From Verrucomicrobiota bacterium (lineage in GTDB: Bacteria; Verrucomicrobiota; Verrucomicrobiia; Limisphaerales; JBFMBT01), in the NCBI GenBank assembly GCA_040754875.1, contig JBFMBT010000017.1, positions 1 to 36,071 on the forward strand: a stretch of 36,071 bases of DNA. The letters run 5' to 3'. Shown one piece after another: positions 1,620 through 27,796 of this stretch. A program made the translations under genes and the position numbers. Below the pieces are notes generated by a model that ran no database searches, had not been told where the DNA came from, and saw nothing but the letters and a program-made list of their open reading frames with translations. Position 1 is the stretch's first letter, and every line of letters begins with the position of its first letter.

Positions 1620-3737
1620 TTACTTCGTGGGCACCAATTGCAGTCCATCGACGATCACATGTCCTTCGGTGTCTTTGTTCGAAACGGTGATGGTTGTCCC
1701 TTTGCCTTTGGGTAGCGTGAACTTGCCGAGGGAGAATGCGCCGTTTTTCTTCGCGTCGCGCTGGTTGACCTTCACGGTGCGCGTCTCGCCGCCTTTCACG
1801 GCGACAGTCACCGGCACGTTCGTTGCGCGATTGGACGAGTGCGGCGCGAACAAAAAGACCTCGTATTCGCCCGCCGTGGGAATCTCCGGCGTGAACGCCA
1901 CGGTCATCGCGCCTTTGTTCTGGTCGCCGTCGTGCAAGTAGCCGCTGCCCACTTTCCACGCGATGGTCGCGGCGGGCGCCCAGTCGCCGGTCTTCTGCGC
2001 GTCGGCGTCATCCAGCACCACGCCGGGCAGGCTCTTGGGGTCAATGACCCTCCCGCCGGTGCGCGACGGACCAGTCCATTCGAGAATCTGTTTGTCCGCC
2101 AGCAATCGAGCGCGGAGCTTGTCGTAATTCACTTTGGCCACGGGCACCTTGTCGTCGATCGCGTAAACCGCCGCTGTCGCCGCCGACTGGCCGAGGATCA
2201 TAAACACCGGTTCCATGCGGATGCTGCCATACGCGATGTGCGACGAAGACAGGCACACCGGCACGAACAGGTTGTTGCACTCGCTGGTCTTCGGAATGAT
2301 GGAGCGATACGAAATCGGATACGGCTTCATCGGCGGCACCTGGACGTCGCCTTCGTTCTCGGCCCGGCCGTTCTTCACGATGCGATTGCAGTTGTGCGAA
2401 TCCATGTTGTAGGCGGCCAGGCCCACGGAGTCCTGCGCAACCTCGACATAACGGCAATGTTTCTCGGTCATCACGTAATCGGACACCAACCGCCGCGCCT
2501 CGCGTACATACATCTCGCGCGACCAGCCGAGCGTGTCCTGAAACTCATCCTTGCAAGGCCCCCAGCGCTTCATTTCTTCGCGCATGTTTTCCGGCACGCG
2601 CGGGCTGGTGGCCAGGAACCACATGAAGCCACGGATGTAATTCTCATGTTCCTTCGCGATCTGTTCGCGCTTCGCGTAATCCGCCTCCGGATAATCCCAG
2701 TTCATGCTGATGAAATCGGTCGAGAACCCGCCGTTGTTATTGATGTCCGTCTTGTGGTTGGGCATCCAGATGGGATTCCAGAATTGCCCGAGCACGGGCT
2801 TCCGGCCGGCGGCGACCAGCGCTTCGAGATAACGCCCCAGCAGTTCATACTTCTTCGCGTCGTAGGCGGGCGGTGGCGCCAGCGGCAGGCGGTTGGCGGC
2901 GTTGGTCGTGTAACAAAGCCGGTAATTGTAGGCCTGTACGCGCTTGTCGCCGTCGCCCGGCTTGCCGCCATCGCCGGGCTGGATGAACGGCAGCAGTCCG
3001 CTCGAAGGGTCGCCCGGCCTCATGTATGGATCCACCGGCACGGTGAATTGATGCTTCGGCGTCTCGGCGCGAATGCCGTTGAGGGTTTCCCCGTAAGTCG
3101 CGTTGGCCTCGCGTCCGACGTGATAGGAGCAACCCGCCTTCGCCAGCAAATCGCCTTCATACGTGCCGTCGATGAACATCTTCGCGCGAAACACCTTGCC
3201 GTTTTCCATCGTGATTTCCGTGATGCGCAAGCCGTCCTTCTTCACGGCGGCCAGCCGTTGTTCGAGATACACCGGCACCTTCGCCTCGCGCAACATGTCG
3301 AAGTAAATCTTCTCCGCCACGCGCGGCTCGAAGGTCCACATCGTTGCCTCCGGGCCGTCCAGACTGCTGGCGGCCGACTGCCCGCCGCGGCGTTTGCTGA
3401 AATACTCCTGCGCGGTTTCGGACACCCACGACGACGGTTTCGCGTAATGTTGCGCGATGCGATGGTAAAACTCGCGCGAGATGCCGCCGACCGCCGCCTT
3501 GTTGCCGATGTCCGTCGCGCCCAGCCCGCCGGTGGTCAGGCCGCCCAGATACTTCGTGGGGTTGACGATGACCGCCGTCTTGCCCATGCGATGGGCCTGA
3601 ATGGCGGCGACGATGCCCGCCGAGGTTCCGCCGAAAACACAAATATCAGCTTCAATCACTTCGGCGGCCTGGCTTTGGGTTGGACTCAACAAACAGGCCA
3701 GCGCGGTCAGAATGGAGGTAAGGCGAAACAAGTTCAT
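1620..3737 (-). CDS. secreted FAD-dependent oxidoreductase (xanthan-lyase-like FAD_oxidored family) with a C-terminal beta-rich domain
   Basis: It has an N-terminal signal peptide (MNLFRLTSILTALACLLSPTQSQA) and a Rossmann dinucleotide-binding motif (CVFGGTSAGIVAAIQA). It is 705 aa with an ATG start at 3737. Confidence 0.85.
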   Translation of the reverse strand: MNLFRLTSILTALACLLSPTQSQAAEVIEADICVFGGTSAGIVAAIQAHRMGKTAVIVNPTKYLGGLTTGGLGATDIGNKAAVGGISREFYHRIAQHYAKPSSWVSETAQEYFSKRRGGQSAASSLDGPEATMWTFEPRVAEKIYFDMLREAKVPVYLEQRLAAVKKDGLRITEITMENGKVFRAKMFIDGTYEGDLLAKAGCSYHVGREANATYGETLNGIRAETPKHQFTVPVDPYMRPGDPSSGLLPFIQPGDGGKPGDGDKRVQAYNYRLCYTTNAANRLPLAPPPAYDAKKYELLGRYLEALVAAGRKPVLGQFWNPIWMPNHKTDINNNGGFSTDFISMNWDYPEADYAKREQIAKEHENYIRGFMWFLATSPRVPENMREEMKRWGPCKDEFQDTLGWSREMYVREARRLVSDYVMTEKHCRYVEVAQDSVGLAAYNMDSHNCNRIVKNGRAENEGDVQVPPMKPYPISYRSIIPKTSECNNLFVPVCLSSSHIAYGSIRMEPVFMILGQSAATAAVYAIDDKVPVAKVNYDKLRARLLADKQILEWTGPSRTGGRVIDPKSLPGVVLDDADAQKTGDWAPAATIAWKVGSGYLHDGDQNKGAMTVAFTPEIPTAGEYEVFLFAPHSSNRATNVPVTVAVKGGETRTVKVNQRDAKKNGAFSLGKFTLPKGKGTTITVSNKDTEGHVIVDGLQLVPTK

Positions 3738-3797
3738 GGGAACAGGATAGACAAAGTCCCTTGCGTGAGGGCAATCACAAACCGCCGGAATTGCGGC

Positions 3798-4289
3798 TCA
3801 CGACTTGGATTGAGCTTCGATTTCGCTCACTTCCTTGCGCAACGCGGAGAAGTTTCCCTGCTCGCAGCAATGAACGAAACCTTCAGTCACGCTCTTCAAT
3901 TCCTCCCAGCGCGCGCGAATCTTGCGCGCCTCCTCCTTGGAGATGTGATTGTCGCTGGCCGCGGTGGCGACCACCGAGAGCAGGTCGGCAAATTCCTGCA
4001 CGATCTGGTTCGTCGCGGGAATCACGTAATACGGATGCGGCCACTGCGCGCGCGGATTCTTGATGAAGAAACCGCCGGCACGTTCGCAAATCCATTGCGC
4101 GATGCGCGGGTCCTGCGTGGCCTTGATGAGTGTCTCGATGCGGTCCAGGGGATTGGGCGTGCCGCTGCCGCCTTCGCGCGAAGCTTCGGCCCATTTGTAA
4201 ATCATCGAAAGCGAAAGCCCCATGTCGTCAGCCACCTGCTTGGGGTTGGATTTGCTCAGAACATCGCGCAACAGTTCGTGGGATTGCAT
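3798..4289 (-). CDS. hypothetical protein with a probable N-terminal Cro/CII-like HTH
   Basis: The 163-aa ORF has an ATG start and non-biased composition. The segment VADDMGLSLSMIYKW resembles the recognition helix of phage CII/YdaS-like HTH domains. The function is unknown. Confidence 0.55.
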   Translation of the reverse strand: MQSHELLRDVLSKSNPKQVADDMGLSLSMIYKWAEASREGGSGTPNPLDRIETLIKATQDPRIAQWICERAGGFFIKNPRAQWPHPYYVIPATNQIVQEFADLLSVVATAASDNHISKEEARKIRARWEELKSVTEGFVHCCEQGNFSALRKEVSEIEAQSKS

Positions 4290-4549
4290 GGCGCGAGTCT
4301 AACACGGTCCCCACCCGAAACGGAAGTGGAGAGTTGCACCGCCCGTATTACAAACCCCTCATGGTTTTATAAATGAAATGCCCGCGTGCGCGTGCAATTC
4401 TCTACTCCGACGTGAAAGTCGATTCTCTCGCGCACCACGAAGGACGCCAAGGAGCGTTTCCCCGGCAGGCACTGCTGGCTTGCCGGGGAAACATCAATCA
4501 GCGACACTGAGCGCGTAATGAGGGTTTCGTTGCGCCACATCACAATATT

Positions 4550-4932: not shown

Positions 4933-6510
4933 TCAATCGCCGCGCGGTCGGCGCATGTTGCGCGCCAGGTATTGTCGCGTGCTCTCGCGGTTGGCGGCGT
5001 CATAGAATTCCACGGGATTATAATCGTCAGTCAGCACCATCCCGCTGGTCGAATTGACGTTGCCAATCCGACGATAGGCCGTTTCGGCTTCCCACTGTAC
5101 GGAGGGATGAACCGCGGAGACGTCCGGTTCACGCTCAAACTCAAGCGGCGCTCGGTCGGAGGCGACAAAGAACACATTGCCTCCGCCGCTGTGATGAATC
5201 CGCACGCTCTTGAACACCGCCTTCAACGTCTTGTCCAGCGAGGCTGTGAAAAAGTCCCGGCCCGGCGAGAAATCCCCAAAACTGTTGATGACCAGCACGC
5301 CGCCTGGTTTGAGCACCTCCTGCATGGCGGCGAAGGCTTCGCGAGTCATCAGATGCGACGGCGAAGAATCGCCCAGGAACGCGTCCAGCACCACGGCATC
5401 GTATTTCTTGTCGGTCGCGTTCAGGTGGTAACGTCCGTCACCGATGATGATATTCAACTTGTCCGGTTCGAGGCCGAAATGCTTCGCGGCCAGCGGCACC
5501 ACGGCAGGATTGATTTCCACGGCATCGACCTTCGCTCCATCCCGCGCGAAGTTCATCGGCGCAATGCCCACGCCTAGGCCGATGCACAGGACGTCATCGA
5601 GCGTCGAGGTGTAAACGCGCGCCAGACCGTGCAGCATGTAGGTGAAGAGGCTGACGCTCTTTTTGGTTTCCGGGTCGTATGTGTTCTGCGTGAGATAATC
5701 GTTCAGGTAATAGCGTGTATCGCGCGACTGGCTTTCGAGAACTTGCAACAATCCAAAATCCGAATTACGCCGCTCAATCTGCGTGCCGAGGATGTAGTTT
5801 GGATTATTGTCCACCCGCACGCCGCCGTAACCGAGCAACGCCGTGAGTGCCACAAGCACAGTCGCCGTCATCTGTTGCTGGCTTTGTTTAGCAACGACAA
5901 AGTAACCGGACGCGACGGCAACCAGCACTCCCGCGGTGATATACATCGTCACCGAGTTCGGCAGGAATGGCAGCAGCACGTAGCCAATCAGCACCGTGCC
6001 CAACACGCTGCCCAGTGTGCTGATGGCCGACAATCGCCCGACTTGTCCGCCCACCACGCTAACCGATGACGTCATCACGCGAATCACAAACGGCCCCACC
6101 GCTGCGAGCAAGGTCAACGGCACGAAGAACAGGAACAGCGACGCCAGCACCGAGCCTGCCGCCAGCTTGAAACGCAGGCACGCGTAAGCCACCGGCTCAC
6201 AGAAGGCGATGGTCGTTGCCAGATAGAGCGCCGCACCGAGAATGCAAAAGTACAGCCGGTGCAGCTTTTGCGAACGGTCCACCAGCCAGCCGCCGAACCA
6301 ATAACCGGCTGCCAGAGATACCAGCGTTACCGCGATCTGCGCGGTCCACACGAAATGCGAAGTGCCAAAGTAGGGTGACAACATCTTCGCCCCGAGAATC
6401 TCGACAATCAGGATGACGGCGCCGGTCACGGCGGCGGTCAAATAGAGGTAGCGCCGCAAACCGGGCGAGACATCCGACACGGGTTGCGCGGGAGCGGGTT
6501 TCTTTTGCAC
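4933..6510 (-). CDS. fused membrane (MFS-like) / spermidine synthase-like aminopropyl/methyltransferase-fold protein
   Basis: The N-terminal roughly 200 aa contain multiple TM helices. The C-terminal region (VLDAFLGDSSPSHLMTREAFAAMQEVLKPGGVLVINSFGD) is spermidine-synthase/SAM-MTase-like. The start appears to be GTG at 6510. Confidence 0.8.
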   Translation of the reverse strand: MQKKPAPAQPVSDVSPGLRRYLYLTAAVTGAVILIVEILGAKMLSPYFGTSHFVWTAQIAVTLVSLAAGYWFGGWLVDRSQKLHRLYFCILGAALYLATTIAFCEPVAYACLRFKLAAGSVLASLFLFFVPLTLLAAVGPFVIRVMTSSVSVVGGQVGRLSAISTLGSVLGTVLIGYVLLPFLPNSVTMYITAGVLVAVASGYFVVAKQSQQQMTATVLVALTALLGYGGVRVDNNPNYILGTQIERRNSDFGLLQVLESQSRDTRYYLNDYLTQNTYDPETKKSVSLFTYMLHGLARVYTSTLDDVLCIGLGVGIAPMNFARDGAKVDAVEINPAVVPLAAKHFGLEPDKLNIIIGDGRYHLNATDKKYDAVVLDAFLGDSSPSHLMTREAFAAMQEVLKPGGVLVINSFGDFSPGRDFFTASLDKTLKAVFKSVRIHHSGGGNVFFVASDRAPLEFEREPDVSAVHPSVQWEAETAYRRIGNVNSTSGMVLTDDYNPVEFYDAANRESTRQYLARNMRRPRGD

Positions 6511-6577
6511 GCGCTGTTTCTACTTTTGCAGAGGTTGGGAAGCAAGCCGCATGGGATTGGGCGCTTGGAGATCGGTA

Positions 6578-6740
6578 CCGGATCGCGGCTGTCCTCAGCC
6601 GCAGCGTGTGGAAAGCAAAGCGGAGTTGGGAGGTTCGTTTGATCGTATGTGTGTTTGACGTCTCATGGAGATAACCTCGAAGTCAGTCCATTAGCTCGGT
6701 TGCATTTTACGCGCTGCGGCTGAGGACAGCCGCGGTCCGG
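6578..6740. repeat. 29-bp near-perfect inverted-repeat pair (ccgga[t/c]cgcggctgtcctcagccgcagcg) flanking a 105-bp lower-GC spacer; each arm also contains an internal 7-bp hairpin (gcggctg-tcct-cagccgc)
   Basis: The left arm at 6578-6606 is the reverse complement of the right arm at 6712-6740, with 28 of 29 positions identical. It lies in the divergent intergenic region between the genes starting at 6510 (minus strand) and 6882 (plus strand). Confidence 0.8.
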
Positions 6741-6881
6741 GTCACATGGTGCGTTGCGACAGTTCGCGGCAATCCCGCGCGGGGCGGGGCGCTACGGCTT
6801 GCGGGTTTGGGTCGCATCTGACAGAATGCACCAACAGACCACGGCGACCGGGAAAACCACTTTCGCCGTTGGCGTGTAACG

Positions 6882-8831
6882 ATGGACGTGGAAGCCATAT
6901 TCGTTCTCGGCTTGTTTTTGCTGGGGCTGTTGCCGCTGGCCATCCTGGCGCAGCGCGCGCGCTCACGGTTCGGCGCGGTGCTGGCGGTTCTTGCGGGCCT
7001 TGGCACTGCGGGCGGTTTGCTCGCCATGGTGGCCCGCACCAAGCCGCCCATCATGATCGCCGGCGTTCCCACCAACCGCCCCATCGAAGTCCACGAAGAC
7101 GGTTACGTCTCATCCCAGACCTGCCGCTCGTGTCACCCGGGGAATTACGACACGTGGCACGATTCCTATCACCGCACGATGACGCAAGTGGCCACGCCGG
7201 AAACGGTGAAAGGCAACTTCAGCAACCAGGTGGTGCACGTGGAAGGGTTGACCTTTCGCATGGAACGCATCGGTGACGAATTCTGGGTGGAAGCCAGCAA
7301 CGCGACCAACTCGGCCGCGGCGCCCATGCGCAACCGCGTCACTTTGGTGACGGGTTCGCATCACATGCAGGTTTACTGGATACCGACTGGCGCCACGCGC
7401 AAGCTGGAGCCGGTGCCGATCATATACCTGTTCGAAGCGGAACGGTGGATTCCGCGGAAAGCGGCCTTCCTCCTTGGCCCCGGCGCGCCGCCGTTCGTGG
7501 AGGTCGGCCGTTGGAATGAAACGTGCAACTCCTGTCATACCACACGACCGCGACCGCGCTTGTTCGGGCCGGATGAGATGGACACGCGCGTGGCCGAGTT
7601 TGGGATCGCGTGCGAAGCCTGCCATGGCCCCGCCGAGGAACATGTGCGGGTCAATCGCGATCCTTTGCGCCGTTATTCCAGCCGCATGGCGCAGCGCGAC
7701 GACGACACCATTGCGCATCCGGGGAAAATGTCCGCCGTCCAGGGTTCGCAGGTGTGCGGACGCTGTCACACCATTGGCCATCAAACGGCGTTGACGGCCA
7801 GCGAGTGGAAAGACGACGGGGTGAGTTATCGTCCCGGCGAAGACCTGAACAAGTACGTCAGCCTCGTGCATATCGGTAACAAGGCGTTGTATGAACATTG
7901 GGAGGAACGGCAGCCGTCGTTCATCCGCGACCGCTTTTGGTCCGATGGCATGGTCCGGGTTTCCGGCCGCGAGTACAACGCATTGCTTGATTCGCCGTGT
8001 TACGCCCACGGCACAGGCGAGCGCCAGATGTCGTGTTTCTCCTGCCACGCGATGCACCAGCCGGCCGGCGACCCGCGCCCACGCAGCGAATGGGCCAACG
8101 ACCAATTGAAACCGGGCATGGACGGCAGCCGCGCGTGTCTTCAATGCCATGAAGACATCGGCCGGGACATCGGCGCGCACACGCACCATCGCGTCGATTC
8201 GGCCGGCAGCAATTGTTACAACTGCCACATGCCTTATACGACGTACGGTTTGCTCAAGGCGATGCGCAGCCATACGGTCAGCAGCCCCACTGTGCAATCC
8301 AGCGTTGACACGGGACGCCCGAACGCGTGCAACCAATGCCACCTCGATAAGACCATGGAATGGTCCGCAGAACATATGCACCGGTGGTATGGCATCGAGA
8401 AGCCGCAGCTCACGGATGATCAACGCGAAATCGCCGCCTCGATTCTCTGGACGTTGAAAGGCGATGCCGGACAGCGCGCCTTGATGGCGTGGAGCATGGG
8501 CTGGGAGCCGGCGAAGGAAGCATCCGGGAGCGACTGGCTTACGCCGTATCTGCTCCCGCTGCTGGTGGATCCGTATGATGCCGTGCGTTACATCGCCCAA
8601 CGTTCGCTCCGGGGCGTGCCGGGTGTGGGGGAGTTTTCGTATGATTTCGTCGGCCCGGAGAGCGAGCAACGCGTGGTGGCTCAGCGCTTGATGGTGCAGT
8701 GGCGCAGCCGTCCGCACCCCGGCGAAGGCCGCGCCGCCCTTCTGCTGGATGCCAAAGGGCAGATAAGGCAGGACATTTTTCTCAGACTGTTTGCGGAGCG
8801 GGATAATAAAGTCGTCTCGTTAGCCGAATAA
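6882..8831 (+). CDS. membrane-anchored multiheme (8 x CxxCH) c-type cytochrome with C-terminal HEAT-like repeats
   Basis: It has two N-terminal TM helices followed by the motifs CRSCH, CNSCH, CEACH, CGRCH, CFSCH, CLQCH, CYNCH and CNQCH. The C-terminal roughly 130 aa are helical-repeat-like. Confidence 0.85.
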   Translation: MDVEAIFVLGLFLLGLLPLAILAQRARSRFGAVLAVLAGLGTAGGLLAMVARTKPPIMIAGVPTNRPIEVHEDGYVSSQTCRSCHPGNYDTWHDSYHRTMTQVATPETVKGNFSNQVVHVEGLTFRMERIGDEFWVEASNATNSAAAPMRNRVTLVTGSHHMQVYWIPTGATRKLEPVPIIYLFEAERWIPRKAAFLLGPGAPPFVEVGRWNETCNSCHTTRPRPRLFGPDEMDTRVAEFGIACEACHGPAEEHVRVNRDPLRRYSSRMAQRDDDTIAHPGKMSAVQGSQVCGRCHTIGHQTALTASEWKDDGVSYRPGEDLNKYVSLVHIGNKALYEHWEERQPSFIRDRFWSDGMVRVSGREYNALLDSPCYAHGTGERQMSCFSCHAMHQPAGDPRPRSEWANDQLKPGMDGSRACLQCHEDIGRDIGAHTHHRVDSAGSNCYNCHMPYTTYGLLKAMRSHTVSSPTVQSSVDTGRPNACNQCHLDKTMEWSAEHMHRWYGIEKPQLTDDQREIAASILWTLKGDAGQRALMAWSMGWEPAKEASGSDWLTPYLLPLLVDPYDAVRYIAQRSLRGVPGVGEFSYDFVGPESEQRVVAQRLMVQWRSRPHPGEGRAALLLDAKGQIRQDIFLRLFAERDNKVVSLAE

Positions 8832-8837
8832 CACATC

Positions 8838-9296
8838 ATGAACAACGAAACTGAAGCAAACGAACGCGAGGCAACTGCGCGCAGGCACATTATGGCGGGC
8901 TGGTGGGCCGTGTTGTTGTTTCTCACGCTGGGCATTGTGCTGGAGTTGTTACACGGGTTCAAAGTCGGCTGGTATTTGAACGTGGGCAACTCGACGCGCC
9001 GACTGATGTGGACGCTCGCGCACGCGCATGGAACGTTGATTGGGCTCCTCAACGTCGCCTTCGGCCTGACCGTGCGCCATTTGAACTGGCAGGGACGAAG
9101 TTTGGCGCTCGCCTCCACGGCGCTCCTTTGCGGTGCGATCTTGCTGCCCGGCGGTTTTTTCCTGGGCGGCGTCGTGATTTACGACGGCGACCCGGGACTG
9201 GGTATCCTGCTGGTGCCGGTCGGCGCGTTTGCTTTGCTCCTGGGCATTGGCCTGACCGCGCGGGCGGCCACGGCGAATGATCCGGCCAGAAAATGA
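8838..9296 (+). CDS. small integral membrane protein (about 4 TM), probably co-transcribed with the multiheme cytochrome
   Basis: It starts 7 nt after the stop of the upstream cytochrome gene. The sequence is strongly hydrophobic (WWAVLLFLTLGIVLELL..., LLVPVGAFALLLGIGL). Confidence 0.6.
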   Translation: MNNETEANEREATARRHIMAGWWAVLLFLTLGIVLELLHGFKVGWYLNVGNSTRRLMWTLAHAHGTLIGLLNVAFGLTVRHLNWQGRSLALASTALLCGAILLPGGFFLGGVVIYDGDPGLGILLVPVGAFALLLGIGLTARAATANDPARK

Positions 9297-20308: not shown

Positions 20309-23300
20309 TCAGTAGTTTTCCGGTGGCGGGAGGTTGACGTCGCCGCCTTTGACGGCTTTCGCCTTGGCCTGCCATTCGCGCTCGGCCTGGATGATTTCCC
20401 AAATCTTCTTCAACGTGTCGCGCGAGACGGAAGTAATCTGGTAATCGGATTGCTCGCCGGAATCGAGCACGCGCAACGTCGGCTGTTCGCGCTGGAGTTT
20501 CACGTTCTCGGCCAGCGCCGCCTGAATGGAAGCCAGCGTCTGGCCGAAGTGGCCGAGTTGCGAGGCGAGCTGGCCGACCAATTCCTTGTCCAACGCGGGC
20601 GCCGGCGCGGCTTTGCGCGGCGTTTCCTGCTGTTTCACGCCTTCGGCGAGCACACCTTTGATGGATTCCAATCCTTGGGCGAACGCGGCCAACTGGCCGG
20701 TGATTTGTTCGACGGAATCGGTGGTCGGTTTGCGGACGCTGTCCCGCTGGGCCTTCACCGCATCGGTAAGCACCGAACGAATCGAATCAAGCCCTTCGGC
20801 AAACGTGGAAAGCTGCGCGACGACCTGGCCGATCGGGTCCTTTTGATTGACGCCCTGGAACAGCAGGTTGCGCTTGAACGTCTTCTTGATGTCTTCCCAG
20901 CGGGCCGCGTCGCTCTCGGTCATCCAGCCTTGTAGTTCGCGGAATTTGAGGAGGTTGGCTTCGGCGCCGGTCGTGAGCGTCTGCGATTCGTTTTTGTAGT
21001 GGTCGGCGATGACGAGCTTCACTTCCTCCTCGTTCATCACGGGCAGAATCTTTTCTGCCATGCGATTCATGTTGCGGTAGGAGCCTTGTAATTTGAACGG
21101 CGGCTCGGTGCGATATGCCTCCGCCTGCGCCGCCGAGCGGATGTATTCGAGATTCACGCGCAGGACCGTGTCGCGGATGCGGAACAGCCACTTCATCACG
21201 GCGACCATCTCGGTGGTTTCCTCGGCGGAGTAATTGCCCTCGAATTCGACGCCGTCGCGCGTGCCGGTCTCGGCAATCTTCACAATCGCGTAAACATCCT
21301 TCTGGCTGCGGCTGCTCAGGCGGTTGAGCACCGGATTGGACGTCAGCGTGTTTTCCAGATAGCTCAACTTGAACGCCTCGTCCGCTCCGCCGACGATGTC
21401 GCCGAGGTTGTAGGTGTCGGCGCGATTGGCGAGCATGTCGGGGATCTTGAATTTCTCGCCGCTCTCGGTGTACGGATTGCCGGCCATGACCACGCACACC
21501 TTCTTGCCGCGCAAATCGTAAGTCTTCGCGCGCCCCTTATAGACGCCTTCGATCTTCCGCTGCGCATCGCACAACGAGATGAACTTCTGCAAGAACTCGG
21601 GATTCAAATGCTGGATGTCGTCCAGGCAGATCATCACGTTGTCGCCCATTTCGAACGCGAGATTGAGCTTCTCGATTTCCTCGCGCGCGCTGGCGTTGGG
21701 CGCTTCGCCGGGGTCGAGCGATGTCACCTCGTGCCCGATGGCCGGGCCGTTGATCTTCATGAAGATGATGCCCAGCCGGTTGGCGATGTATTCCATCAGC
21801 GTTGTCTTGCCGTAGCCGGGTGGGGAAACGAGCAGCAGCATGCCCATGCGATCCGTGCGTGTGGCTTCGCCGGCGACGCCGAGTTGCTTGGCGAGATTGC
21901 TGCCGACCATGGGGAGGTAAACGGAGTCAATGAGCCGGTTGCGCACGAACGACGTGAGGACACGCGGACGGAACTCGTCCAACCGCATGTCCTGGCGCAT
22001 GGCTTCCACCAGCGCCGCCTTGTGCCGATGATATTTTTCGAACAGCGGCATCACGTCGCGTTCATGGCGCGTGAGCTTGTGCATGAAGGCGTTGTAGTTC
22101 AGCGAACAGGTCTGGTCCTTGAGCGCCGGATGCGAACCCATCATGCCGGCAATCTGCGTGGCGACTTCCGCGTCCACCACGGCCCGCGGATCGGGTGTGC
22201 CGCGCAACAAGACGGCCATGGCTTCGTCCAGATATTCGGCGTCCAGCGGGCTTTCGGCCGTGGGCAGAAAGGCCGACACCCAGTCGCGAATCAAATGGCA
22301 GGTCGCACGAACATTGCTTTCGAGCGCGTGCTTCGCTTCTTCGAACCGCTTGGTGACATGCTTGGTGCGCAGGAACAGCGTGAAGGCATGGCAGATGTCC
22401 GCCGCCTTGCGGCTGATGACGAGCGTCGCGTTGCTGGTAAGGTCGTGGAACAGGTATTCCGCCGCTTCGTCGGCGAGATCGACAGGGAACAGGCCGGTCT
22501 GCGCGCAGAAATCGCGGATGAGCTGCTCCAGTTCGCGGATGTGGGCGGCTTCGGCGCGGTGCGTGGGAAACAGTTCGCGCCGCACGCGCATGCCCGCGAG
22601 TTTGGCGGCCAGGATCGGGTCCTTCCTTTCGTGCTCGTGCCAGAAGGCGGCGGCACAGGCGCGCGCGTGGGTGTGGTAGCGCAACAGGCCGATGGTGGAA
22701 TGCAGCCGCAGCAACTCGCGCAGAATCTTCGCGCCGTCGAGATCGTGAATCCCCTTGATGTAGCCTTCGGAATAACGCGGCGCCATGAACTCCTGCACGA
22801 ACGCCAGCAACGCCGCGTCATCCAACGCCGTCACGTCCGCCAGGTTCCGGTCCAGTTCGCGCGCATCGAGCGCCTTCAGGATGCGATACGCCAGGTACTC
22901 GGCGCGATACACGGTGTCCGTCTCCGACACGACCTCCTGGTTCCAGGCGGGGCGGGTGGCATCCAGTTCCTGGTCGGCGATTTTCTCGAAGAAGTTCGTG
23001 CCGGTAAGATGATAATACATCTCGCCGTCGCGCAGCACCGTGGTCAGCTCCAGCGGCTGCGTGTTGACCGTGAACTTGTGCTGGCCGAGCTGGATGATGT
23101 TCTTGCCATCGACGAACAGCTCCTGGCGGTCCTTGAGCTGGCGGACCGCGTCTTCGCGAATCGTCTTGAGCCGGCTCTGGATGTCGCCGGACTTGACGGT
23201 GTCCTTCAGGTCGATCAGTTGCTGGACGACGTTCCGCACTTTTTCCACCATGAGATCGGAGGCGAAGTAGCCGTTGATCTCGTTGATGGACTGCATGCCA

Positions 23301-25663
23301 TCGATGCGGTTCTTGATGCCCTTGAGGATGCGGTCCGCCGAGGCCATCAACGCCGTGGCCTTTTTGTTGCGCGCCTCGACCAGACCCAGCTTGCGGTTCT
23401 CGAACGCGGTGTAGAGTTCTTCGCGCTTCTCGGTGAGCTGAAGGACGAATTCGTCGAAATCTGCGAACCGCGCCTCCAGTTCCTCGACGTGCACCATGAC
23501 CTTGGTCAGGTATTCGTCGCAGCGCTCCGGGCTGTCGCAAATCTCGAGGTAATTGGTGACGCTCTGGTCGAGCAGGCGCATCTGCGAACTGAACTGCGCC
23601 TCGCCTTCGCCCTTGGCCAGTTCCTGGCGGCGACGCTTGAGGGCGGCCTTGATCTGATTGAGCGGGGCGTAAATCGCCGAGATGCCATCGATGATGCGCG
23701 TGGTCTGCGTGGAATCCTCGATCTTCAGGTTGCTGACGATCTCGATCAGCATTTCGAGTTCCTTGCCCGTGTTGGCGATGGCTTCGTCCAGCGCCTTGGC
23801 CTCGGTGACCTTGGCCAGCGCGCCGACGGCGTTTTCGTGTTCCTTGACCTTCTTCTGATACGGTTCCAGCGCCTCGGGCTTAAGGAGGAATTCGACGCAC
23901 AATTTGGAAAGCTGCTCGGTGTGCTCGGCGACATTCTTTTCCAGCGCCTCGACCGCCGGCAAATCCACGTAGCGCAATTCCTTCAGCGAAATGATTTCAC
24001 CCCGCACGGCGCGCAAGCCGGCGAGTTGCGTGACGAAATGGCCGATTTCCTGCAACGCCGAGTAATCGATGCCCGTGGTGAGCCGGGTGGCCGTTTCGGT
24101 GACGCGTTTGACCTCGGCCTGGGTGTTGCGGCGGATGCGAATGACCTTTTCGAATTCATCAATTGCGCTGGAAGCCGCGGTCTTGATAGCCAGCAACGTG
24201 CTCTTGAGATCGAACGCCTCCTTGTTATCGAGCCAGAAATAGGAGTCGATGATGGTCGTCGTGACCTTGACGATATCGACGTACAGGCCGGCGAAGGTGT
24301 CCTGCTTGCCCAGCAGCGTCAGCAGGCTCTGGCACTCGGCCATGCAACCGACGATGGAGGGGTTGCCGATTTTGTAGAGGAACGAATCTTTGCGCGTGGG
24401 CAGGGAGACGTTGTGGTCGAGGAACGGCGTCTGCCAGATTTGAATCGAGTGATGTTTCTGCGGCTCATCAGTGGCTTTGAAAAACGCCATTTCGCCGTTC
24501 TCGAACAGGGAGAATCCATTGCAGACGATGGGCGATTCGACTTTTTGCGCGATGAGGTTGTAGGGCATCAGCACGTAAGTGCCCGACGGTTTGTTGTAGA
24601 AGACGTAGAGGAAATCCTCGCCGTTGGGCGAGGTGATGCGCCGCTCGTACGTCATGTTCGACAGTTCGGTGGGGAACTGTTTGAACTCGCCGAGTTGCAG
24701 GTAATAGCCGCTCGAGAAAATGATGCCCTGGTCGTCCGGCAGCAACACGCACGAGTCCGCGAGGGCGTCGATGCGCCGCACTTCCTTCAGCTTCTCGTTG
24801 AAAACGAAGTAACGGAAATTGGGTTCCTGATACGGACGGATCTTCAGCAGAATCAGGTTGCCGACGATGGCGTAAAATATTTCCGCGTCATCGAGCGTCT
24901 GGTCCTTGTGCTCGACCGGCTCGGAGTAGATGCCTTCGCCGGACTTGGTGTTGTCCTCGACCTTGATGGTCAGGTCGCCTTGGATGGTTTCGACGAAGAC
25001 GCGGTCCGCAATCGAGATGTGCGGGTGCAGGCCGTGGCGATGCAGTTCGCGGTGGGTGCGGATCCATTCGAACTCGTGCTGCGGGGGATACTTCAGTTCG
25101 TGGTCGCTGCGGTTGCCCTGGTAAAGCAACTCGCCGTCCTTCATGAGCCACTTGAACGTCTTGAAATCATCGACGCTCTGGCCTACGCGAAACTTCATGA
25201 ACAGGTGCGGGCCGATCACCATGAGTTTCGCGAAGAACGTGTTCTTGTAATATTTGTAGAGCTGACGGAAGTCGTTCAGGAAGGTCTCGTCGCTGATGAG
25301 ATCCAGCGGCAGTTGCGTGAAGGTGTGGTCCTTGTGCTCGTAAACGGCGAAGACATCGGCCAGTTGCGTCTCGGTCTTCAGGCCGATGAACACGTTGTAG
25401 CCAAACAGGAACCGGCCCTGGCCCACGGAAACCATGTCGCGCGGGACACAGTTGTTGTTCGTGGTGATGTGCTCGGTGGCAACCAGCGCGGTGGGGATGG
25501 AACCGAAGACCTCCTGGCGCGCGGCGTTGAGTTGCGCGAGGCGCGCGCGCAGTTCGGCGCCGCTGGCATCCAGGCGCTTGCGGATGACCTCGTAGGTGCC
25601 GCCCTCGAGCTGGACCTGCGGCTCCTGCGCGGGCTTCGGCGGTTCTGTGGGTTGGTCAGCCAT
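20309..25663 (-). CDS. giant (1784 aa) protein with one AAA_5/MoxR-like ATPase module, coiled-coil regions and C-terminal tandem repeats; function unknown
   Basis: Walker A is LLLVSPPGYGKTT and Walker B is VMICLDDIQ. A sensor/second region GNPYTESGEKFKIPDMLANRADTYNL near residues 1270-1450 resembles dynein-related AAA_5/MoxR modules. A long helical heptad-rich stretch spans residues about 560-900. Three roughly 35-aa C-terminal repeats are present. Confidence 0.85.
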   Translation of the reverse strand: MADQPTEPPKPAQEPQVQLEGGTYEVIRKRLDASGAELRARLAQLNAARQEVFGSIPTALVATEHITTNNNCVPRDMVSVGQGRFLFGYNVFIGLKTETQLADVFAVYEHKDHTFTQLPLDLISDETFLNDFRQLYKYYKNTFFAKLMVIGPHLFMKFRVGQSVDDFKTFKWLMKDGELLYQGNRSDHELKYPPQHEFEWIRTHRELHRHGLHPHISIADRVFVETIQGDLTIKVEDNTKSGEGIYSEPVEHKDQTLDDAEIFYAIVGNLILLKIRPYQEPNFRYFVFNEKLKEVRRIDALADSCVLLPDDQGIIFSSGYYLQLGEFKQFPTELSNMTYERRITSPNGEDFLYVFYNKPSGTYVLMPYNLIAQKVESPIVCNGFSLFENGEMAFFKATDEPQKHHSIQIWQTPFLDHNVSLPTRKDSFLYKIGNPSIVGCMAECQSLLTLLGKQDTFAGLYVDIVKVTTTIIDSYFWLDNKEAFDLKSTLLAIKTAASSAIDEFEKVIRIRRNTQAEVKRVTETATRLTTGIDYSALQEIGHFVTQLAGLRAVRGEIISLKELRYVDLPAVEALEKNVAEHTEQLSKLCVEFLLKPEALEPYQKKVKEHENAVGALAKVTEAKALDEAIANTGKELEMLIEIVSNLKIEDSTQTTRIIDGISAIYAPLNQIKAALKRRRQELAKGEGEAQFSSQMRLLDQSVTNYLEICDSPERCDEYLTKVMVHVEELEARFADFDEFVLQLTEKREELYTAFENRKLGLVEARNKKATALMASADRILKGIKNRIDGMQSINEINGYFASDLMVEKVRNVVQQLIDLKDTVKSGDIQSRLKTIREDAVRQLKDRQELFVDGKNIIQLGQHKFTVNTQPLELTTVLRDGEMYYHLTGTNFFEKIADQELDATRPAWNQEVVSETDTVYRAEYLAYRILKALDARELDRNLADVTALDDAALLAFVQEFMAPRYSEGYIKGIHDLDGAKILRELLRLHSTIGLLRYHTHARACAAAFWHEHERKDPILAAKLAGMRVRRELFPTHRAEAAHIRELEQLIRDFCAQTGLFPVDLADEAAEYLFHDLTSNATLVISRKAADICHAFTLFLRTKHVTKRFEEAKHALESNVRATCHLIRDWVSAFLPTAESPLDAEYLDEAMAVLLRGTPDPRAVVDAEVATQIAGMMGSHPALKDQTCSLNYNAFMHKLTRHERDVMPLFEKYHRHKAALVEAMRQDMRLDEFRPRVLTSFVRNRLIDSVYLPMVGSNLAKQLGVAGEATRTDRMGMLLLVSPPGYGKTTLMEYIANRLGIIFMKINGPAIGHEVTSLDPGEAPNASAREEIEKLNLAFEMGDNVMICLDDIQHLNPEFLQKFISLCDAQRKIEGVYKGRAKTYDLRGKKVCVVMAGNPYTESGEKFKIPDMLANRADTYNLGDIVGGADEAFKLSYLENTLTSNPVLNRLSSRSQKDVYAIVKIAETGTRDGVEFEGNYSAEETTEMVAVMKWLFRIRDTVLRVNLEYIRSAAQAEAYRTEPPFKLQGSYRNMNRMAEKILPVMNEEEVKLVIADHYKNESQTLTTGAEANLLKFRELQGWMTESDAARWEDIKKTFKRNLLFQGVNQKDPIGQVVAQLSTFAEGLDSIRSVLTDAVKAQRDSVRKPTTDSVEQITGQLAAFAQGLESIKGVLAEGVKQQETPRKAAPAPALDKELVGQLASQLGHFGQTLASIQAALAENVKLQREQPTLRVLDSGEQSDYQITSVSRDTLKKIWEIIQAEREWQAKAKAVKGGDVNLPPPENY

Positions 25664-25744
25664 GGAGGATTAAAGCCTCAATTCCCAACCGGCAAACTTC
25701 AAAGAAGCATCAAGCATGAAGCTCCCAAGGATAGGCGCGCCGGC

Positions 25745-27796
25745 TTACGCCTTGCGGTCGCCGAGGGCGTTGACCTTCTTCTCGTGCAAGCCGAGCCGTT
25801 GAGCCAGCGCCAGCATGCGCTGGAGCGTGCCCTTGGTTTCGCCGTCGTCGGCCAGCGTGATCATCTGGCTCAAGGCGGCGGCGACCGTCAGGTTCTTGAC
25901 GTCCTCGGAGGTCAGGCCGAACTGCGAGGTGAAGCCCTTCAACTGCGTCCGGAAATATTCCGGGTCGGAATTGAAGAACGTATCCTTCACGGTGGTCAGC
26001 GTGTCGCTGTTGGCGACCATGCGGTCCACTGCCTTGCCGGCGGTGATGGCGCCGACAATCTTGTCGAAGAACTGCGTCTCGCCGCCCACGATATCGACCT
26101 TGGCGGTCTTGAGCGCCTCGCTGACGACCTGCGCCTGGCTGCTGGCGATGTCCTTCTGGACATTGATCATGGCCAGTTCGACATCCTTCTCCTTGTTCAA
26201 GCGCAGCTTGAATTCCTCGTGCTCGCGGCCGACGCCGTCGAAGATCTTCATCGCTTCGGCCTTCTCGGTGATGCCCTTGGCCTCCGCGCCGTACTTGAGT
26301 TCCATGACCTTGGCTTCGGCGGAACCTTGCTTCTCGACCGCGTTGGCTTTGGCTTCGAGCACCTGGACTTCGCCCAAACCCGGGGCGGCGGTTTCCTTGG
26401 TAACGGCTTCGGCCAGCAATTTCTTGGCCGTGGCTTCGCGTTCGGCCGCTTCCTGGTGCGCCTCAGCCTGAATGATGGTTTCCTGTGCCTTGATCTCGGC
26501 GGCCTTGCGTGAGGCTTCGGCCGCCTTGACCACGCGGATCATGTCCTCGTCCGCCTTGAGTTCGGCGGCGCGCTTGGAGGCTTCGGCCGTTTTCGTTTCT
26601 TTGATGAGAATCTCTTCGCCTTCCATGGTCGCCTTGGTAACGACGACCTGCTTTGTGCGGTCCGCCGCCGCAAAAGCCTCGGTGTCCTTGATGCGCTCTT
26701 TCTCGGCGACGACGGCCTTCTCCACCATCACACGCTCGCGGATGACATCCTGAATCTTCTTTTGCTCCACTTCGATGGCGCGCTGCTTCTCGATGTCCGC
26801 CAGCGTCACCACGCGTTCGCGTTCGGTGACCTCCAAAAGGCGATCTTTCTCGACGCGCTCGGTTTCCACCGCATTAGTGCGCTCCTTGTTCTTTTGCGCC
26901 ACGATGATCTGGCGGTTTTTGTTTTCCTCGGCGATGGCGATTTCCTCGTCCGCCGCGATGCGGGCCTGTTCGCCCTTGAGTTTCATCTCCTGCTCGACCT
27001 TCTTGGCCTCGGCGTGTTCGCGCGCGGTGAGGGTGGCAATCTCGCGCTTCTGCTTCTCGGTGGCCTCGGCGAGCTGACGGTTCAATTCGAGAATCTTTTC
27101 CTTCGCTTCGACGTCCTGCGCAGTGATGACCTTTTCCTTGTCGCGTGCAATACTGTTGGCCAGTTTGGCCTGAGCCGCGGTTAACTCGGTGATCTTTTTG
27201 ATGCCCTCGGAGTCCAAAATGTTGTTGGGGTTCATGTACTCGAGGCTGGTCTGCTCCAGATAATCAATGGCGGCGTCATCGAGCACATAGCCGTTCAAGT
27301 CCGTGCCGATGCTCTTGAGAATCTGGTCGCGAAATTGCTCGCGTGAGTTGTACAGCTCCACGAAATCAAACTGTCGGCCCACAGTCTTCAACGCTTCCGA
27401 AAATTTCGCGTCGAACAACTCGGAAATGGCCTTCTGGTCGGAGGCGCGCGTGCAACCCACGGTGGTAGCCACCTTGACCACGTCATCCTCGGTTTTGTTC
27501 ACGCGCACAAAGAACGCCACGCTGATGTCCGCGCGCATGTTGTCTTTGCAGATGAGACCGGCGGCGCCGCGCCGGTCGATCTCGATGCGGTGGACCGAGA
27601 TGTTCATGAATTCCACCTTGTGCAGGACGGGGATGACGATCATGCCCGAGAACGAGACTTTGGTCCCGCCCGCACCGTTGCGCACCAGCGCCCATCCTTG
27701 ATCGACCTTTCGGTAACAGCGCAAAATCATGGCGATGAAACCGATCCCAATGATCAAGCCGACAAACATCAGCACCGCAACTATCGCTCCACTCAT
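25745..27796 (-). CDS. flotillin-family SPFH protein (YqiK/FloT-like) with an extended E/K/A-rich coiled-coil region
   Basis: It has an N-terminal TM segment followed by an SPFH domain (VRNGAGGTKVSFSGMIVIPVLHKVEFMNISVHRIEID...). The long EA-rich flotillin repeats bring it to 683 aa, longer than typical YqiK-like proteins. Confidence 0.9.
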   Translation of the reverse strand: MSGAIVAVLMFVGLIIGIGFIAMILRCYRKVDQGWALVRNGAGGTKVSFSGMIVIPVLHKVEFMNISVHRIEIDRRGAAGLICKDNMRADISVAFFVRVNKTEDDVVKVATTVGCTRASDQKAISELFDAKFSEALKTVGRQFDFVELYNSREQFRDQILKSIGTDLNGYVLDDAAIDYLEQTSLEYMNPNNILDSEGIKKITELTAAQAKLANSIARDKEKVITAQDVEAKEKILELNRQLAEATEKQKREIATLTAREHAEAKKVEQEMKLKGEQARIAADEEIAIAEENKNRQIIVAQKNKERTNAVETERVEKDRLLEVTERERVVTLADIEKQRAIEVEQKKIQDVIRERVMVEKAVVAEKERIKDTEAFAAADRTKQVVVTKATMEGEEILIKETKTAEASKRAAELKADEDMIRVVKAAEASRKAAEIKAQETIIQAEAHQEAAEREATAKKLLAEAVTKETAAPGLGEVQVLEAKANAVEKQGSAEAKVMELKYGAEAKGITEKAEAMKIFDGVGREHEEFKLRLNKEKDVELAMINVQKDIASSQAQVVSEALKTAKVDIVGGETQFFDKIVGAITAGKAVDRMVANSDTLTTVKDTFFNSDPEYFRTQLKGFTSQFGLTSEDVKNLTVAAALSQMITLADDGETKGTLQRMLALAQRLGLHEKKVNALGDRKA

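What the first reader, a model, noticed from the sequence alone, without database searches (positions are those of the whole stretch)
6578..6740. 29-bp near-perfect inverted repeat pair, each arm internally palindromic, bracketing a 105-bp lower-GC core
The arms ccgga[t/c]cgcggctgtcctcagccgcagcg (6578-6606) and its reverse complement (6712-6740) match at 28 of 29 positions, which is far beyond chance. Each arm can also fold on itself (gcggctg-tcct-cagccgc), so the region can form either one long stem-loop or two cruciform hairpins. It lies in the divergent promoter region between the fused-spermidine-synthase gene and the multiheme cytochrome gene. It could be a MITE-like element, a structured ncRNA or a regulator binding platform.
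Basis: seen in the sequence. Interest (0 to 1): 0.5.

Follow-up and report, generated by a model that had tools for sequence, protein, structure and literature searches.

The report
REP doublet (REPIN) of Verrucomicrobiota
The inverted repeat is real, and it is one copy of a widespread family of small palindromic repeat pairs (REP doublets, or REPINs) that a dedicated tyrosine transposase is thought to copy around bacterial genomes, so it is an ordinary, already understood kind of element seen here in a little-studied phylum.

Summary
The arms 6578-6606 and 6712-6740 match at 28 of 29 positions, and the repeat extends to 41 nt at 88%. Each arm carries the hairpin GCGGCTG-TCCT-CAGCCGC, and the 105-bp core has lower GC (47% against 60% for the window).

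It is not a unique structure. The same arm, C-GGA(G/C)C + hairpin + AGC(G/A), occurs in more than 100 genome stretches, mostly Verrucomicrobiota MAGs, and in 107 metagenome stretches. Neighbouring arms are nearly always tag-outward inverted pairs (71 of 84). The spacing is usually about 80 nt; the window's 131 nt is at the long end. Only the arms are conserved, not the core. There are no target-site duplications.

Doublets of this class lie directly beside genes for REP-associated tyrosine transposases (RAYT), which pass the NCBIfam NF047646 cut-off and match PDB 4ER8. Three RAYT homologues chosen by protein similarity alone are flanked on both sides by doublets with the same tag, stem and tail. 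One set carries the window's minority CCGGACC tag.

Best reading: a REPIN, a non-autonomous element mobilised in trans by a RAYT. The ncRNA, operator, terminator and classical-MITE readings are not supported.

Not tested: copy number and presence of a RAYT in the source genome, because the window is one whole MAG contig with a single doublet and no RAYT. It is a new member of a known kind, of low to moderate interest.

The parts
6578..6618 (+). Left REP arm. It comprises the 5' tag CCGGATC (6578-6584), the hairpin GCGGCTG-TCCT-CAGCCGC (6585-6602), and the 3' tail AGCGTGT... (from 6603), which continues the inverted repeat to 6618.
   Evidence: An nhmmer profile built from 146 arms taken from other genomes and metagenomes hits 6579-6613 on the + strand, E = 8.1e-11. 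Family consensus: C-GGAGC-hairpin-AGC(G/A)(C/G)(G)T.
6585..6602 (+). Left arm hairpin, with a 7-bp stem and TCCT loop. This is the presumed RAYT-binding stem-loop when the DNA is single-stranded.
   Evidence: DNA fold -9.5 kcal/mol. The exact 18-mer recurs in at least 113 genome stretches.
6619..6699 (.). It has lower GC, is not conserved in any other copy, and has no fold of its own.
   Evidence: blastn of 6540-6780 against 220 loci matches only the arms. Fold z about 0. GC 46.7%. Only ORFs of 52 aa or fewer lie within it.
6700..6740 (-). Right REP arm in inverted orientation. On the - strand it reads: tag CCGGACC, hairpin GCGGCTG-TCCT-CAGCCGC, tail AGCGCGT...
   Evidence: The nhmmer profile hits 6739-6708 on the - strand, E = 4.5e-11. 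The same CCGGACC tag and AGCGCGT tail occur on the doublets that flank the RAYT genes in L229 and L230.
6716..6733 (-). Right arm hairpin, with a 7-bp stem; the loop reads AGGA on the + strand.
   Evidence: DNA fold -10.5 kcal/mol.

Best explanation
The 163-bp unit is a REP doublet (a REPIN; in Di Nocera's terms a head-head homodimer with tags outward). It belongs to a repeat family that is common in Verrucomicrobiota and neighbouring phyla. Each arm is a REP: a conserved 6-nt 5' tag (consensus C-GGAGC; here CCGGATC and CCGGACC), a 7-bp GC-rich stem with a TCCT loop, and a short conserved 3' tail (AGCG...). By analogy with E. coli TnpA-REP and the IS200/IS605 family, when the DNA is transiently single-stranded each arm folds into its hairpin. 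A single-copy RAYT (Y1/HUH tyrosine transposase) encoded elsewhere in the genome binds the hairpin together with the tag, then cuts and rejoins single-stranded DNA, so that the doublet is copied or moved as a unit without a target-site duplication. The spacer is passenger sequence. At this locus the element is most likely a neutral insertion in the divergent intergenic region. If it is transcribed as part of either 5' UTR it would form a very stable hairpin, which might affect mRNA stability or translation.

Shown here: the anatomy, family membership of the arms, doublet organisation, absence of target-site duplications, and the physical association of this arm class with RAYT genes in other genomes.

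Inferred: the cut-and-rejoin mechanism, the existence of a RAYT and of further copies in the source genome, and any local effect on expression.
For: The 27-nt tag+hairpin+tail occurs in 107 metagenome stretches.

(2) Across 181 arms the outer boundary is sharp. Positions -6 to -1 read C-GGAGC (C in 156 of 181; G at -2 in 167 of 181), while position -7 and beyond show no consensus. An nhmmer profile of 146 foreign arms hits both window arms at E about 1e-10 and nothing else in the window.

(3) Of 84 neighbouring arm pairs within 400 nt, 71 are '+ -' with tags outward, as in the window, and only 2 are '- +'. Spacing is most often 80 nt, with a range of 36-180. Seventy doublets are listed.

(4) Within one MAG (CAZVFC01) the whole doublet including its spacer recurs on many contigs, in both orientations: 19 arms in 67 kb of held sequence. 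This is multi-copy dispersal within a single genome.

(5) Compensatory stem variants (GCGGGTG...CACCCGC and GCGCGTG...CACGCGC) keep the hairpin.

(6) No target-site duplication above the shuffled control.

(7) RAYT genes were found in 7 loci. They were confirmed by NCBIfam NF047646 REP_Tyr_transpos (84.7 and 92.9 bits, cut-off 80), Pfam Y1_Tnp, and PDB 4ER8 TnpA-REP at E = 1.7e-8. In 5 loci of the window's class the doublet abuts the RAYT ORF.

(8) Independent test: three RAYT homologues chosen by protein similarity alone (P0162, P0172, P0186; four loci, L227-L230) are flanked on both sides, roughly 5-60 nt from start and stop codon, by arms with the same tag, stem and tail but longer loops. 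L229 and L230 carry the window's CCGGACC tag and AGCG(C/T)GT tail.

(9) Literature: the REPIN definition and the flanking of RAYT genes by REPs (PMC3116915); REP tag and hairpin recognition and single-stranded DNA cleavage by TnpA-REP (PMC3479197); tag-outward dimers predominating, spacers of 20-100 bp, and REPs reported in the verrucomicrobium Opitutus terrae (PMC3733652).
Against: Only one doublet and no RAYT are present in the 36-kb window, and the rest of the source MAG could not be retrieved. Multi-copy status and a cognate RAYT in this particular genome are therefore untested.

The window's tags (GGATC, GGACC) depart from the majority GGAGC at a position where the family has G in 167 of 181 arms. 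In E. coli every base of the tag is needed for binding and cleavage (PMC3479197), so this copy could be immobile. Against that, a GGACC subfamily with its own RAYT exists.

The 131-nt spacing is longer than the 80-nt mode, and this spacer matches no other copy.

The RAYT-flanking arms found in the independent test have 10- or 20-nt loops, not TCCT.

The test for extragenic location was crude: 50% of hairpins lie inside stop-free ORFs of at least 200 aa, against 85% of random positions.

No evidence of movement, such as presence/absence polymorphism or excision products, was obtainable.
Confidence: 0.87

Rival explanations
1. It was a REPIN but is now exapted. The doublet acts locally as a regulatory structure in the divergent promoter or 5' UTR region of the methyltransferase-like gene and the multihaem cytochrome gene. 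Possible modes are an mRNA-stabilising or translation-blocking hairpin, or a cruciform or protein-binding site that affects both promoters.
For: It sits 67 nt and 141 nt from the two start codons. It forms an extremely stable hairpin on either strand. REPs are reported to influence mRNA stability, termination and protein binding (abstracts of PMC3733652 and PMC3479197).
Against: Nothing was observed that is specific to this locus. The upstream neighbour of the cytochrome gene differs in the nearest homologous loci, so the arrangement is not conserved. No promoter-like or terminator-like sites were found. The same element occurs in hundreds of unrelated contexts.
Confidence: 0.08
2. It is a classical MITE: a deletion derivative of a DDE-type insertion sequence, mobilised through its terminal inverted repeats.
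For: It has 29-41-nt terminal inverted repeats around a non-coding core of about 100 bp, and copies are dispersed.
Against: There is no target-site duplication, either in the window (flanks ...GATCGGTA | GTCACATG...; the family-level conserved block starts one base inside, at the second C of CCGG) or across 69 doublets relative to a shuffled control. Each end is itself a hairpin carrying a conserved 5' tag. The only transposase found beside these arms is a Y1/HUH RAYT, in 9 loci. No full-length parent IS with these ends was seen.
Confidence: 0.02
3. It is a structured non-coding RNA gene or cis-regulatory RNA.
For: The RNA fold is very strong on both strands (z = -8.2 and -8.9). Compensatory stem changes occur within the family.
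Against: Rfam gives no match at gathering threshold across the window and only noise locally (E = 0.41 and 0.64). The core is not conserved and is unstructured. Both strands fold equally well, which is what a DNA palindrome does. Copies occur in both orientations and as tandem arrays beside a transposase gene.
Confidence: 0.02
4. It is an operator or binding platform for a transcription factor that controls the two divergent genes.
For: It has palindromic symmetry and lies in a divergent intergenic region.
Against: At 29-41 nt, with arm starts 134 nt apart (131 nt between hairpin starts), the arms are far larger and further apart than typical operators. The identical motif is scattered across more than 200 unrelated loci in several phyla and clusters around RAYT genes. 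No regulator gene lies adjacent to it.
Confidence: 0.01

Closest known systems
REPINs (REP doublets forming hairpins) with their RAYTs, as defined in Pseudomonas fluorescens SBW25 (Bertels & Rainey 2011, PMC3116915)
   Same: Two REP hairpins in inverted orientation around a less conserved spacer, predicted to form one long hairpin. Doublets are strongly over-represented over other arrangements (71 of 84 here). The doublets flank single RAYT genes, tandem REPIN clusters occur, and there is no target-site duplication.
   Different: The host phylum is Verrucomicrobiota rather than Gammaproteobacteria. The tag is GGA(G/C)C rather than GTAG. The RAYT clade is distant from E. coli RayT (phmmer E about 1e-8 to 1e-10) and has an N-terminal extension (231 aa against 165 aa). 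The window's spacer is longer: the hairpin starts are 131 nt apart, against 71 or 110 bp units in SBW25.
E. coli REP/BIME elements and TnpA-REP (RayT/YafM; PDB 4ER8; Messing 2012, PMC3479197)
   Same: A 5' tag at the foot of a GC-rich hairpin. REPs occur in inverted pairs. The transposase is a Y1/HUH protein with the same HUH and Tyr motifs (alignment; NCBIfam equivalog passed).
   Different: E. coli REP stems are imperfect and BIMEs are heterodimers (y/z types). Here the stems are perfect and the window doublet is a homodimer. The tag sequence differs, and there is no biochemical evidence for the verrucomicrobial enzyme.
GTAG-tagged REP super-family (Di Nocera et al. 2013, PMC3733652), including the GTAG-17 and GTAG-19 families of the verrucomicrobium Opitutus terrae
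   Same: The same general design, with tag-outward (HH) dimers predominating and spacers of 20-100 bp. A sister class with the identical hairpin does carry TGTAG(A/C/G)G in Udaeobacter and Chthoniobacterales MAGs.
   Different: The window's class has GGAGC, GGACC or GGATC in place of GTAG, so it fits neither the GTAG nor the CGTC super-family as those are defined. The O. terrae dimers described in the paper have spacers of only 1-2 bp.
IS200/IS605-family ends and their derivative palindrome-associated small elements
   Same: Subterminal hairpins are recognised as single-stranded DNA by a Y1/HUH transposase, with a guide or tag sequence 5' of the hairpin, and no target-site duplication.
   Different: IS200/IS605 elements carry their own transposase between two different left and right hairpins. 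Here the unit is non-coding and symmetric, and the transposase gene is a single-copy RAYT flanked by doublets.

Membership tests
REP / REPIN-RAYT system | Each unit is a short (about 20-40 nt) GC-rich palindrome able to form a stem-loop | tested here: met
   7-bp perfect stem with a 4-nt loop in each arm. DNA hairpins fold at -9.5 and -10.5 kcal/mol.
REP / REPIN-RAYT system | A conserved short tag at one foot of the hairpin, with a sharp boundary to non-conserved flanks | tested here: met
   In 181 arms, position -6 is C in 156 and position -2 is G in 167 (positions -5 to -3 and -1 were fixed by the selection pattern), while position -7 and beyond show no consensus. The window arms read CCGGATC and CCGGACC, a minority variant at -2 (C in 10, T in 1 of 181).
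REP / REPIN-RAYT system | [quoted passage not shown] | tested here: met
   Window: and (z = -9.5). Family: 71 of 84 neighbouring pairs are tag-outward inverted, with a modal spacing of 80 nt.
REP / REPIN-RAYT system | Many dispersed copies within one genome | tested here: inconclusive
   Met in related genomes: CAZVFC01 has 19 arms on 10 contig stretches, DGDZ01 has 6, and several metagenome samples have 7-12. In the source organism only this one 36-kb contig is available, and it holds a single doublet. The rest of the MAG could not be fetched.
REP / REPIN-RAYT system | A RAYT gene (Y1/HUH, with HUH motif and catalytic Tyr) flanked by REPs of the same class | tested here: inconclusive
   Met for the family. 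Class-B doublets abut RAYT ORFs in L162, L190, L214, L132 and L172, and arms with the same architecture (tag, stem, tail) flank the RAYT genes in L227-L230, which were chosen by protein similarity alone. RAYT identity is supported. Not met within the window, where no ORF matches a RAYT. The source genome is not testable.
REP / REPIN-RAYT system | No target-site duplication (single-strand HUH chemistry) | tested here: met
   Abutting direct repeats of 3 nt or more occur in 5.8% of 69 doublets, against about 3% in shuffled pairings. The window flanks show none.
REP / REPIN-RAYT system | Predominantly extragenic location | tested here: inconclusive
   The window copy is clearly intergenic. Family-wide, a crude test gave 50% of hairpins inside stop-free ORFs of at least 200 aa, against 85% of random positions. 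No proper gene calls were available. Intragenic REPs are also known in Verrucomicrobia (PMC3733652).
REP / REPIN-RAYT system | Evidence of mobility (insertion polymorphism, excision intermediates, RAYT-dependent cleavage) | not testable with these tools
   The nearest cytochrome homologue is only 58% identical and the upstream synteny differs. No reads or strains were available.
GTAG-tagged REP super-family (Di Nocera 2013) | The tetranucleotide GTAG at the REP terminus | tested here: not met
   The window arms carry GGAT and GGAC, and the class consensus is GGAG. A sister class with the same hairpin does carry GTAG.
Classical MITE (DDE-transposon derivative) | Terminal inverted repeats bounded by a target-site duplication, and a parent IS with the same ends | tested here: not met
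   Terminal inverted repeats are present, but there is no target-site duplication. The only associated transposase is a Y1 RAYT.
Rfam structured RNA families | Match to a covariance model at the gathering score | tested here: not met
   No hits in the window at gathering threshold. The best local hits have E = 0.41 and 0.64, far below gathering.
Intrinsic (Rho-independent) terminator | A GC-rich hairpin followed by a T-run at the 3' end of a gene | tested here: not met
   No terminator-like site in 6300-7000. The element lies between two divergent gene starts.

The most novel reading that the evidence does not exclude
The window's element belongs to a previously undescribed REPIN super-family tagged with GGAG or GGACC. 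Its identical 18-nt hairpin is shared, under three different 5' tags (GTAG, GGAGC, GGAGG), by Verrucomicrobiota, Planctomycetota (Phycisphaerae), Kiritimatiellia and Acidobacteriota (Terriglobia). That breadth is hard to square with the current picture of REPIN-RAYT pairs as strictly lineage-specific and vertically inherited. It would imply either an ancient, strongly constrained RAYT-hairpin interface in which the tag co-varies with the RAYT clade (a natural 'guide-sequence' series), or horizontal spread among soil phyla. In addition, this particular copy may have been co-opted to regulate the multihaem cytochrome gene.
Probability: 0.12. Interest if true: 0.5.

Novelty: new member of a known kind. 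Interest (0 to 1): 0.25.

Why it matters
For annotating this contig, the feature should be labelled a REP/REPIN repeat and not a regulatory RNA or operator. That prevents over-interpretation of the promoter region of the multihaem cytochrome gene.

More broadly, REPIN-RAYT systems have been studied almost entirely in Gammaproteobacteria. This work documents a large family in uncultured Verrucomicrobiota: 3,878 RAYT homologues at E <= 1e-30, and hundreds of arms. The family has a non-GTAG tag, tag variants (GGAGC and GGACC) that associate with different RAYTs, and loop-length variants on a constant stem. That gives a natural series for testing how RAYTs read tag and hairpin.

It also explains why contigs break at these sites: most of the RAYT homologues sit on contigs of about 1 kb.

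None of this is surprising to a specialist in mobile elements.

Tried and rejected
(1) I tried to retrieve the source genome by exact-protein look-up of three window proteins and of P0001. Nothing was on record, so copy number and RAYT presence in the source MAG could not be tested.

(2) I tried comparing orthologous loci to look for an empty site. The nearest cytochrome homologue is 58% identical, P0002 was not on record, and in L222 and L223 the upstream neighbour differs. This was uninformative.

(3) Rfam at gathering threshold and at permissive E-value gave nothing meaningful.

(4) The promoter and terminator consensus scan of 6300-7000 found none.

(5) The viral contig scan found only 3 stretches from 2 viral contigs, so the element is not phage-associated.

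(6) The target-site duplication test found none above the control, and the classical-MITE reading was rejected.

(7) The first version of the independent RAYT test searched for the exact TCCT hairpin (up to 3 mismatches) near RAYT homologues and found nothing. Reading the flanks showed the same tag, stem and tail around 10- or 20-nt loops, so the pattern was generalised.

(8) A jackhmmer run with a stop-to-stop ORF that included translated arm sequence produced spurious 'homologues', which were really translated REP arms. These were discarded, and only hits that cover the Y1 domain were kept.

(9) The extragenic-location test using stop-free ORFs is too crude in 60% GC DNA to be conclusive.

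(10) Small ORFs in the core are all 52 aa or shorter with no support, so a small-protein reading was rejected.

Full report
**Observation.** The arm 6578-6606 (CCGGATCGCGGCTGTCCTCAGCCGCAGCG) and the reverse complement of 6712-6740 (CCGGACCGCGGCTGTCCTCAGCCGCAGCG) differ at a single base. The repeat finder extends the inverted repeat to 6578-6618 / 6700-6740, which is 41 nt at 88%. Each arm contains a perfect 7-bp stem with a 4-nt loop, GCGGCTG-TCCT-CAGCCGC. These hairpins fold as DNA at -9.5 and -10.5 kcal/mol. The whole 163 nt folds into one long hairpin at -54.2 kcal/mol as DNA (z = -9.5). The 201-nt RNA folds have z = -8.2 and -8.9 on the two strands. The longest exact inverted-repeat arm in the window is 23 nt, against at most 15 in 100 dinucleotide shuffles. 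The 105-bp core is 46.7% GC, against 59.6% for the window, and has no structure of its own (z about 0). The element lies in a 371-bp gap between divergent genes: 4933-6510 (-), a membrane protein with a spermidine-synthase-like methyltransferase domain, and 6882-8831 (+), a multihaem cytochrome.

**Source.** The window is a complete 36,071-bp contig of an NCBI 'Verrucomicrobiota bacterium' MAG, because P0001 is 100% identical to the window's cytochrome and its longest contig is 36,071 bp. The nearest cytochrome homologue is only 58% identical, so no close relative is available. Exact-protein look-ups for the source failed.

**The arm is a repeated element.**
They are dominated by Verrucomicrobiota MAGs and often show +/- pairs about 80 nt apart.
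- Sorting the copies by their flanks shows three classes on the identical hairpin. Class A is TGTAG(A/C/G)G-hairpin, found in Udaeobacter, Chthoniobacterales and some Terriglobia, and this is the canonical GTAG REP tag. Class B is C(C)GGAGC-hairpin-AGC(A/G)CGTG, found in subdivision-3 and Pedosphaera-like MAGs, and the window belongs here. Class C is GGGAGG- or TGGAGG-hairpin, found in Puniceicoccaceae and Phycisphaerae.
- A metagenome scan with the 27-nt class-B arm (GGANCGCGGCTGTCCTCAGCCGCAGCG) found 107 further stretches.
- blastn of window 6540-6780 against all 220 loci matches only the arms (about 30-43 nt) and never the core.
- Over 181 class-B arms the conserved block begins sharply at C-GGAGC, and position -7 outward shows no consensus.
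- A profile of 146 non-redundant foreign arms hits the two window arms at E = 4.5e-11 and 8.1e-11, and hits nothing else in the window.

**Doublets are the unit.** Among 84 neighbouring arm pairs within 400 nt, 71 are '+ -' with tags outward, as in the window. Only 2 are '- +', and 11 are tandem. Spacing between hairpin starts clusters at 80 nt and ranges from 36 to 180; the window's 131 nt is the second longest. One search lists 70 doublets. Within one MAG (CAZVFC01) the entire doublet including its spacer recurs on many contigs in both orientations, which is the signature of a dispersed replicating unit; that MAG has 19 arms in 67 kb of held sequence. Alternative stems (GCGGGTG...CACCCGC and GCGCGTG...CACGCGC) preserve pairing through compensatory changes. 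No target-site duplications occur above a shuffled control, and none flank the window copy.

**Association with RAYT.**
- Using E. coli RayT (L221) as a phmmer query against all ORFs of the loci and of the window, I found RAYT-like ORFs in L085, L162, L190 and L214. Iteration added L132, L172 and L051. Spurious hits caused by translated REP arms were discarded.
- The proteins pass the NCBIfam equivalog NF047646 'REP-associated tyrosine transposase' (84.7 and 92.9 bits, cut-off 80). They also match Pfam Y1_Tnp and PDB 4ER8 TnpA-REP at E = 1.7e-8, with the HUH motif (HVH) and the tyrosine region aligned.
- In all five class-B loci the doublet abuts the RAYT ORF. The window encodes no RAYT.

**Independent test.**
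- The L162 RAYT has 3,878 homologues at E <= 1e-30, many named 'REP element-mobilizing transposase RayT' by JGI.
- I fetched three of them, chosen only by protein similarity and contig length: P0162, P0172 and P0186, giving loci L227-L230.
- The exact TCCT hairpin was absent from these loci, which at first looked like a failure.
- Reading the flanks showed that every one of these RAYT genes is bracketed, roughly 5-60 nt from the start and stop codon, by arms of the form GGA(G/C)C-GCGGCTG-[10- or 20-nt loop]-CAGCCGC-AGC... These have the same tag, stem and tail as the window's arms and differ only in the loop. They are arranged as tag-outward doublets, and in L229 and L230 as 146-bp tandem arrays.
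- L229 and L230 carry CCGGACC tags and AGCG(C/T)GT tails, the same minority variant as the window's right arm. The GGACC tag is therefore a subfamily with its own RAYT and not simply decay.
- L167 is a metagenomic doublet with TCCT loops, GGACC on both arms and 117-nt spacing. It is the closest look-alike to the window's element.

**Interpretation.** The anatomy, the doublet organisation, the lack of target-site duplication, the within-genome dispersal and the RAYT adjacency match the published definition of REPINs (PMC3116915) and the REP dimer categories of Di Nocera et al. (PMC3733652). That paper reports that tag-outward 'HH' dimers predominate, that spacers are 20-100 bp, and that the verrucomicrobium Opitutus terrae is rich in REPs.

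The mechanism is inferred from E. coli TnpA-REP (PMC3479197). There the RAYT binds the REP hairpin together with its 5' tetranucleotide in single-stranded DNA and cleaves and rejoins at a site specified by tag bases. In that system each tag base is required. The window's left arm (GGATC, seen in only 1 of 181 arms) could therefore be a crippled end, but this is conjecture.

**Rivals.**
- Structured ncRNA: Rfam gives no match, the core is unconserved and unstructured, both strands fold equally, and copies occur in both orientations.
- Intrinsic terminator: there is no T-run, and the element lies between divergent gene starts.
- Classical MITE: there is no target-site duplication, and the associated transposase is Y1 rather than DDE.
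- Dedicated operator: this is implausible given hundreds of unrelated sites.
- Local exaptation as a 5'-UTR hairpin or cruciform in the divergent promoter region cannot be excluded, but nothing observed supports it.

**What is not established.** The source genome's copy number and RAYT are unknown, because only one contig is available and it holds one doublet. No evidence of movement could be obtained. The extragenic bias was tested only crudely: 50% of hairpins lie inside long stop-free ORFs, against 85% of random positions.

**Verdict.** It is a new member of a known kind. The modest novelty lies in the non-GTAG tag (GGAGC/GGACC), the tag and loop variants that track different RAYTs, and the unusually wide phylogenetic spread of one 18-nt hairpin.

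Noticed in passing
L126 4758-5878 (also L137 and L197, from the same metagenome): A 338-bp tandem repeat of 3.3 copies at 93% identity. Each unit carries one class-B arm in the same orientation, so this is a head-to-tail REP cluster that includes flanking DNA, not a set of doublets.
   Followed up: partly
L229 9544-9954 and 10712-10830; L230 25-143 and 901-1457: 146-bp tandem arrays of heterodimeric doublets lie directly against both ends of a RAYT gene. Each doublet has one arm with a 20-nt loop that itself forms a mini-hairpin (TCCCGCG-cag-CGCGGGA) and one arm with a 10-nt loop.
   Followed up: partly
Loci L001-L113: The identical 18-nt hairpin GCGGCTGTCCTCAGCCGC carries different 5' tags in different lineages. 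The tag is TGTAG(A/C/G)G in Udaeobacter and Chthoniobacterales (a related GTAGC tag occurs in Terriglobia), CGGAGC in subdivision-3-like Verrucomicrobiota, and GGGAGG or TGGAGG in Puniceicoccaceae and Phycisphaerae. This is an unusually wide spread for one REP core.
   Followed up: partly
L113 (CAZQNQ010000006.1, binned as 'uncultured Bifidobacterium sp.'): This locus carries a class-B arm (CTGGAGC-hairpin-AGCGCGT) that is otherwise typical of Verrucomicrobiota. The labelled taxon is unexpected for this arm class; not examined further.
   Followed up: no
Proteins P0121-P0240: Most RAYT homologues of this clade sit on contigs of only about 1 kb. This fits assemblies breaking at the REPIN arrays that flank the gene.
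   Followed up: no
window 8838-9296 (+): A 152-aa ORF with no Pfam hit follows the multihaem cytochrome gene directly. The same pairing, with a 164-aa and a 149-aa ORF also lacking Pfam hits, is seen in L222 and L223, while the upstream neighbour differs. This looks like a conserved two-gene module of unknown function.
   Followed up: no
window 20309-25663 (-) and 21608-26512 (+); also 1620-3737 (-) and 1839-4376 (+): Very long ORFs overlap on opposite strands: 1,784 aa against 1,634 aa, and 705 aa against 845 aa. For the second pair the - strand ORF is the real gene (FAD_oxidored plus Golvesin_C). The giant pair was not examined.
   Followed up: no
L142 2917-3467 against window 32847-33397: This is the only stretch in any fetched locus with nucleotide similarity to the window outside the arms (77% over 554 nt). 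Sample Ga0154020 therefore seems to contain a relative of the source organism, and it also holds several contigs with class-B arms.
   Followed up: no
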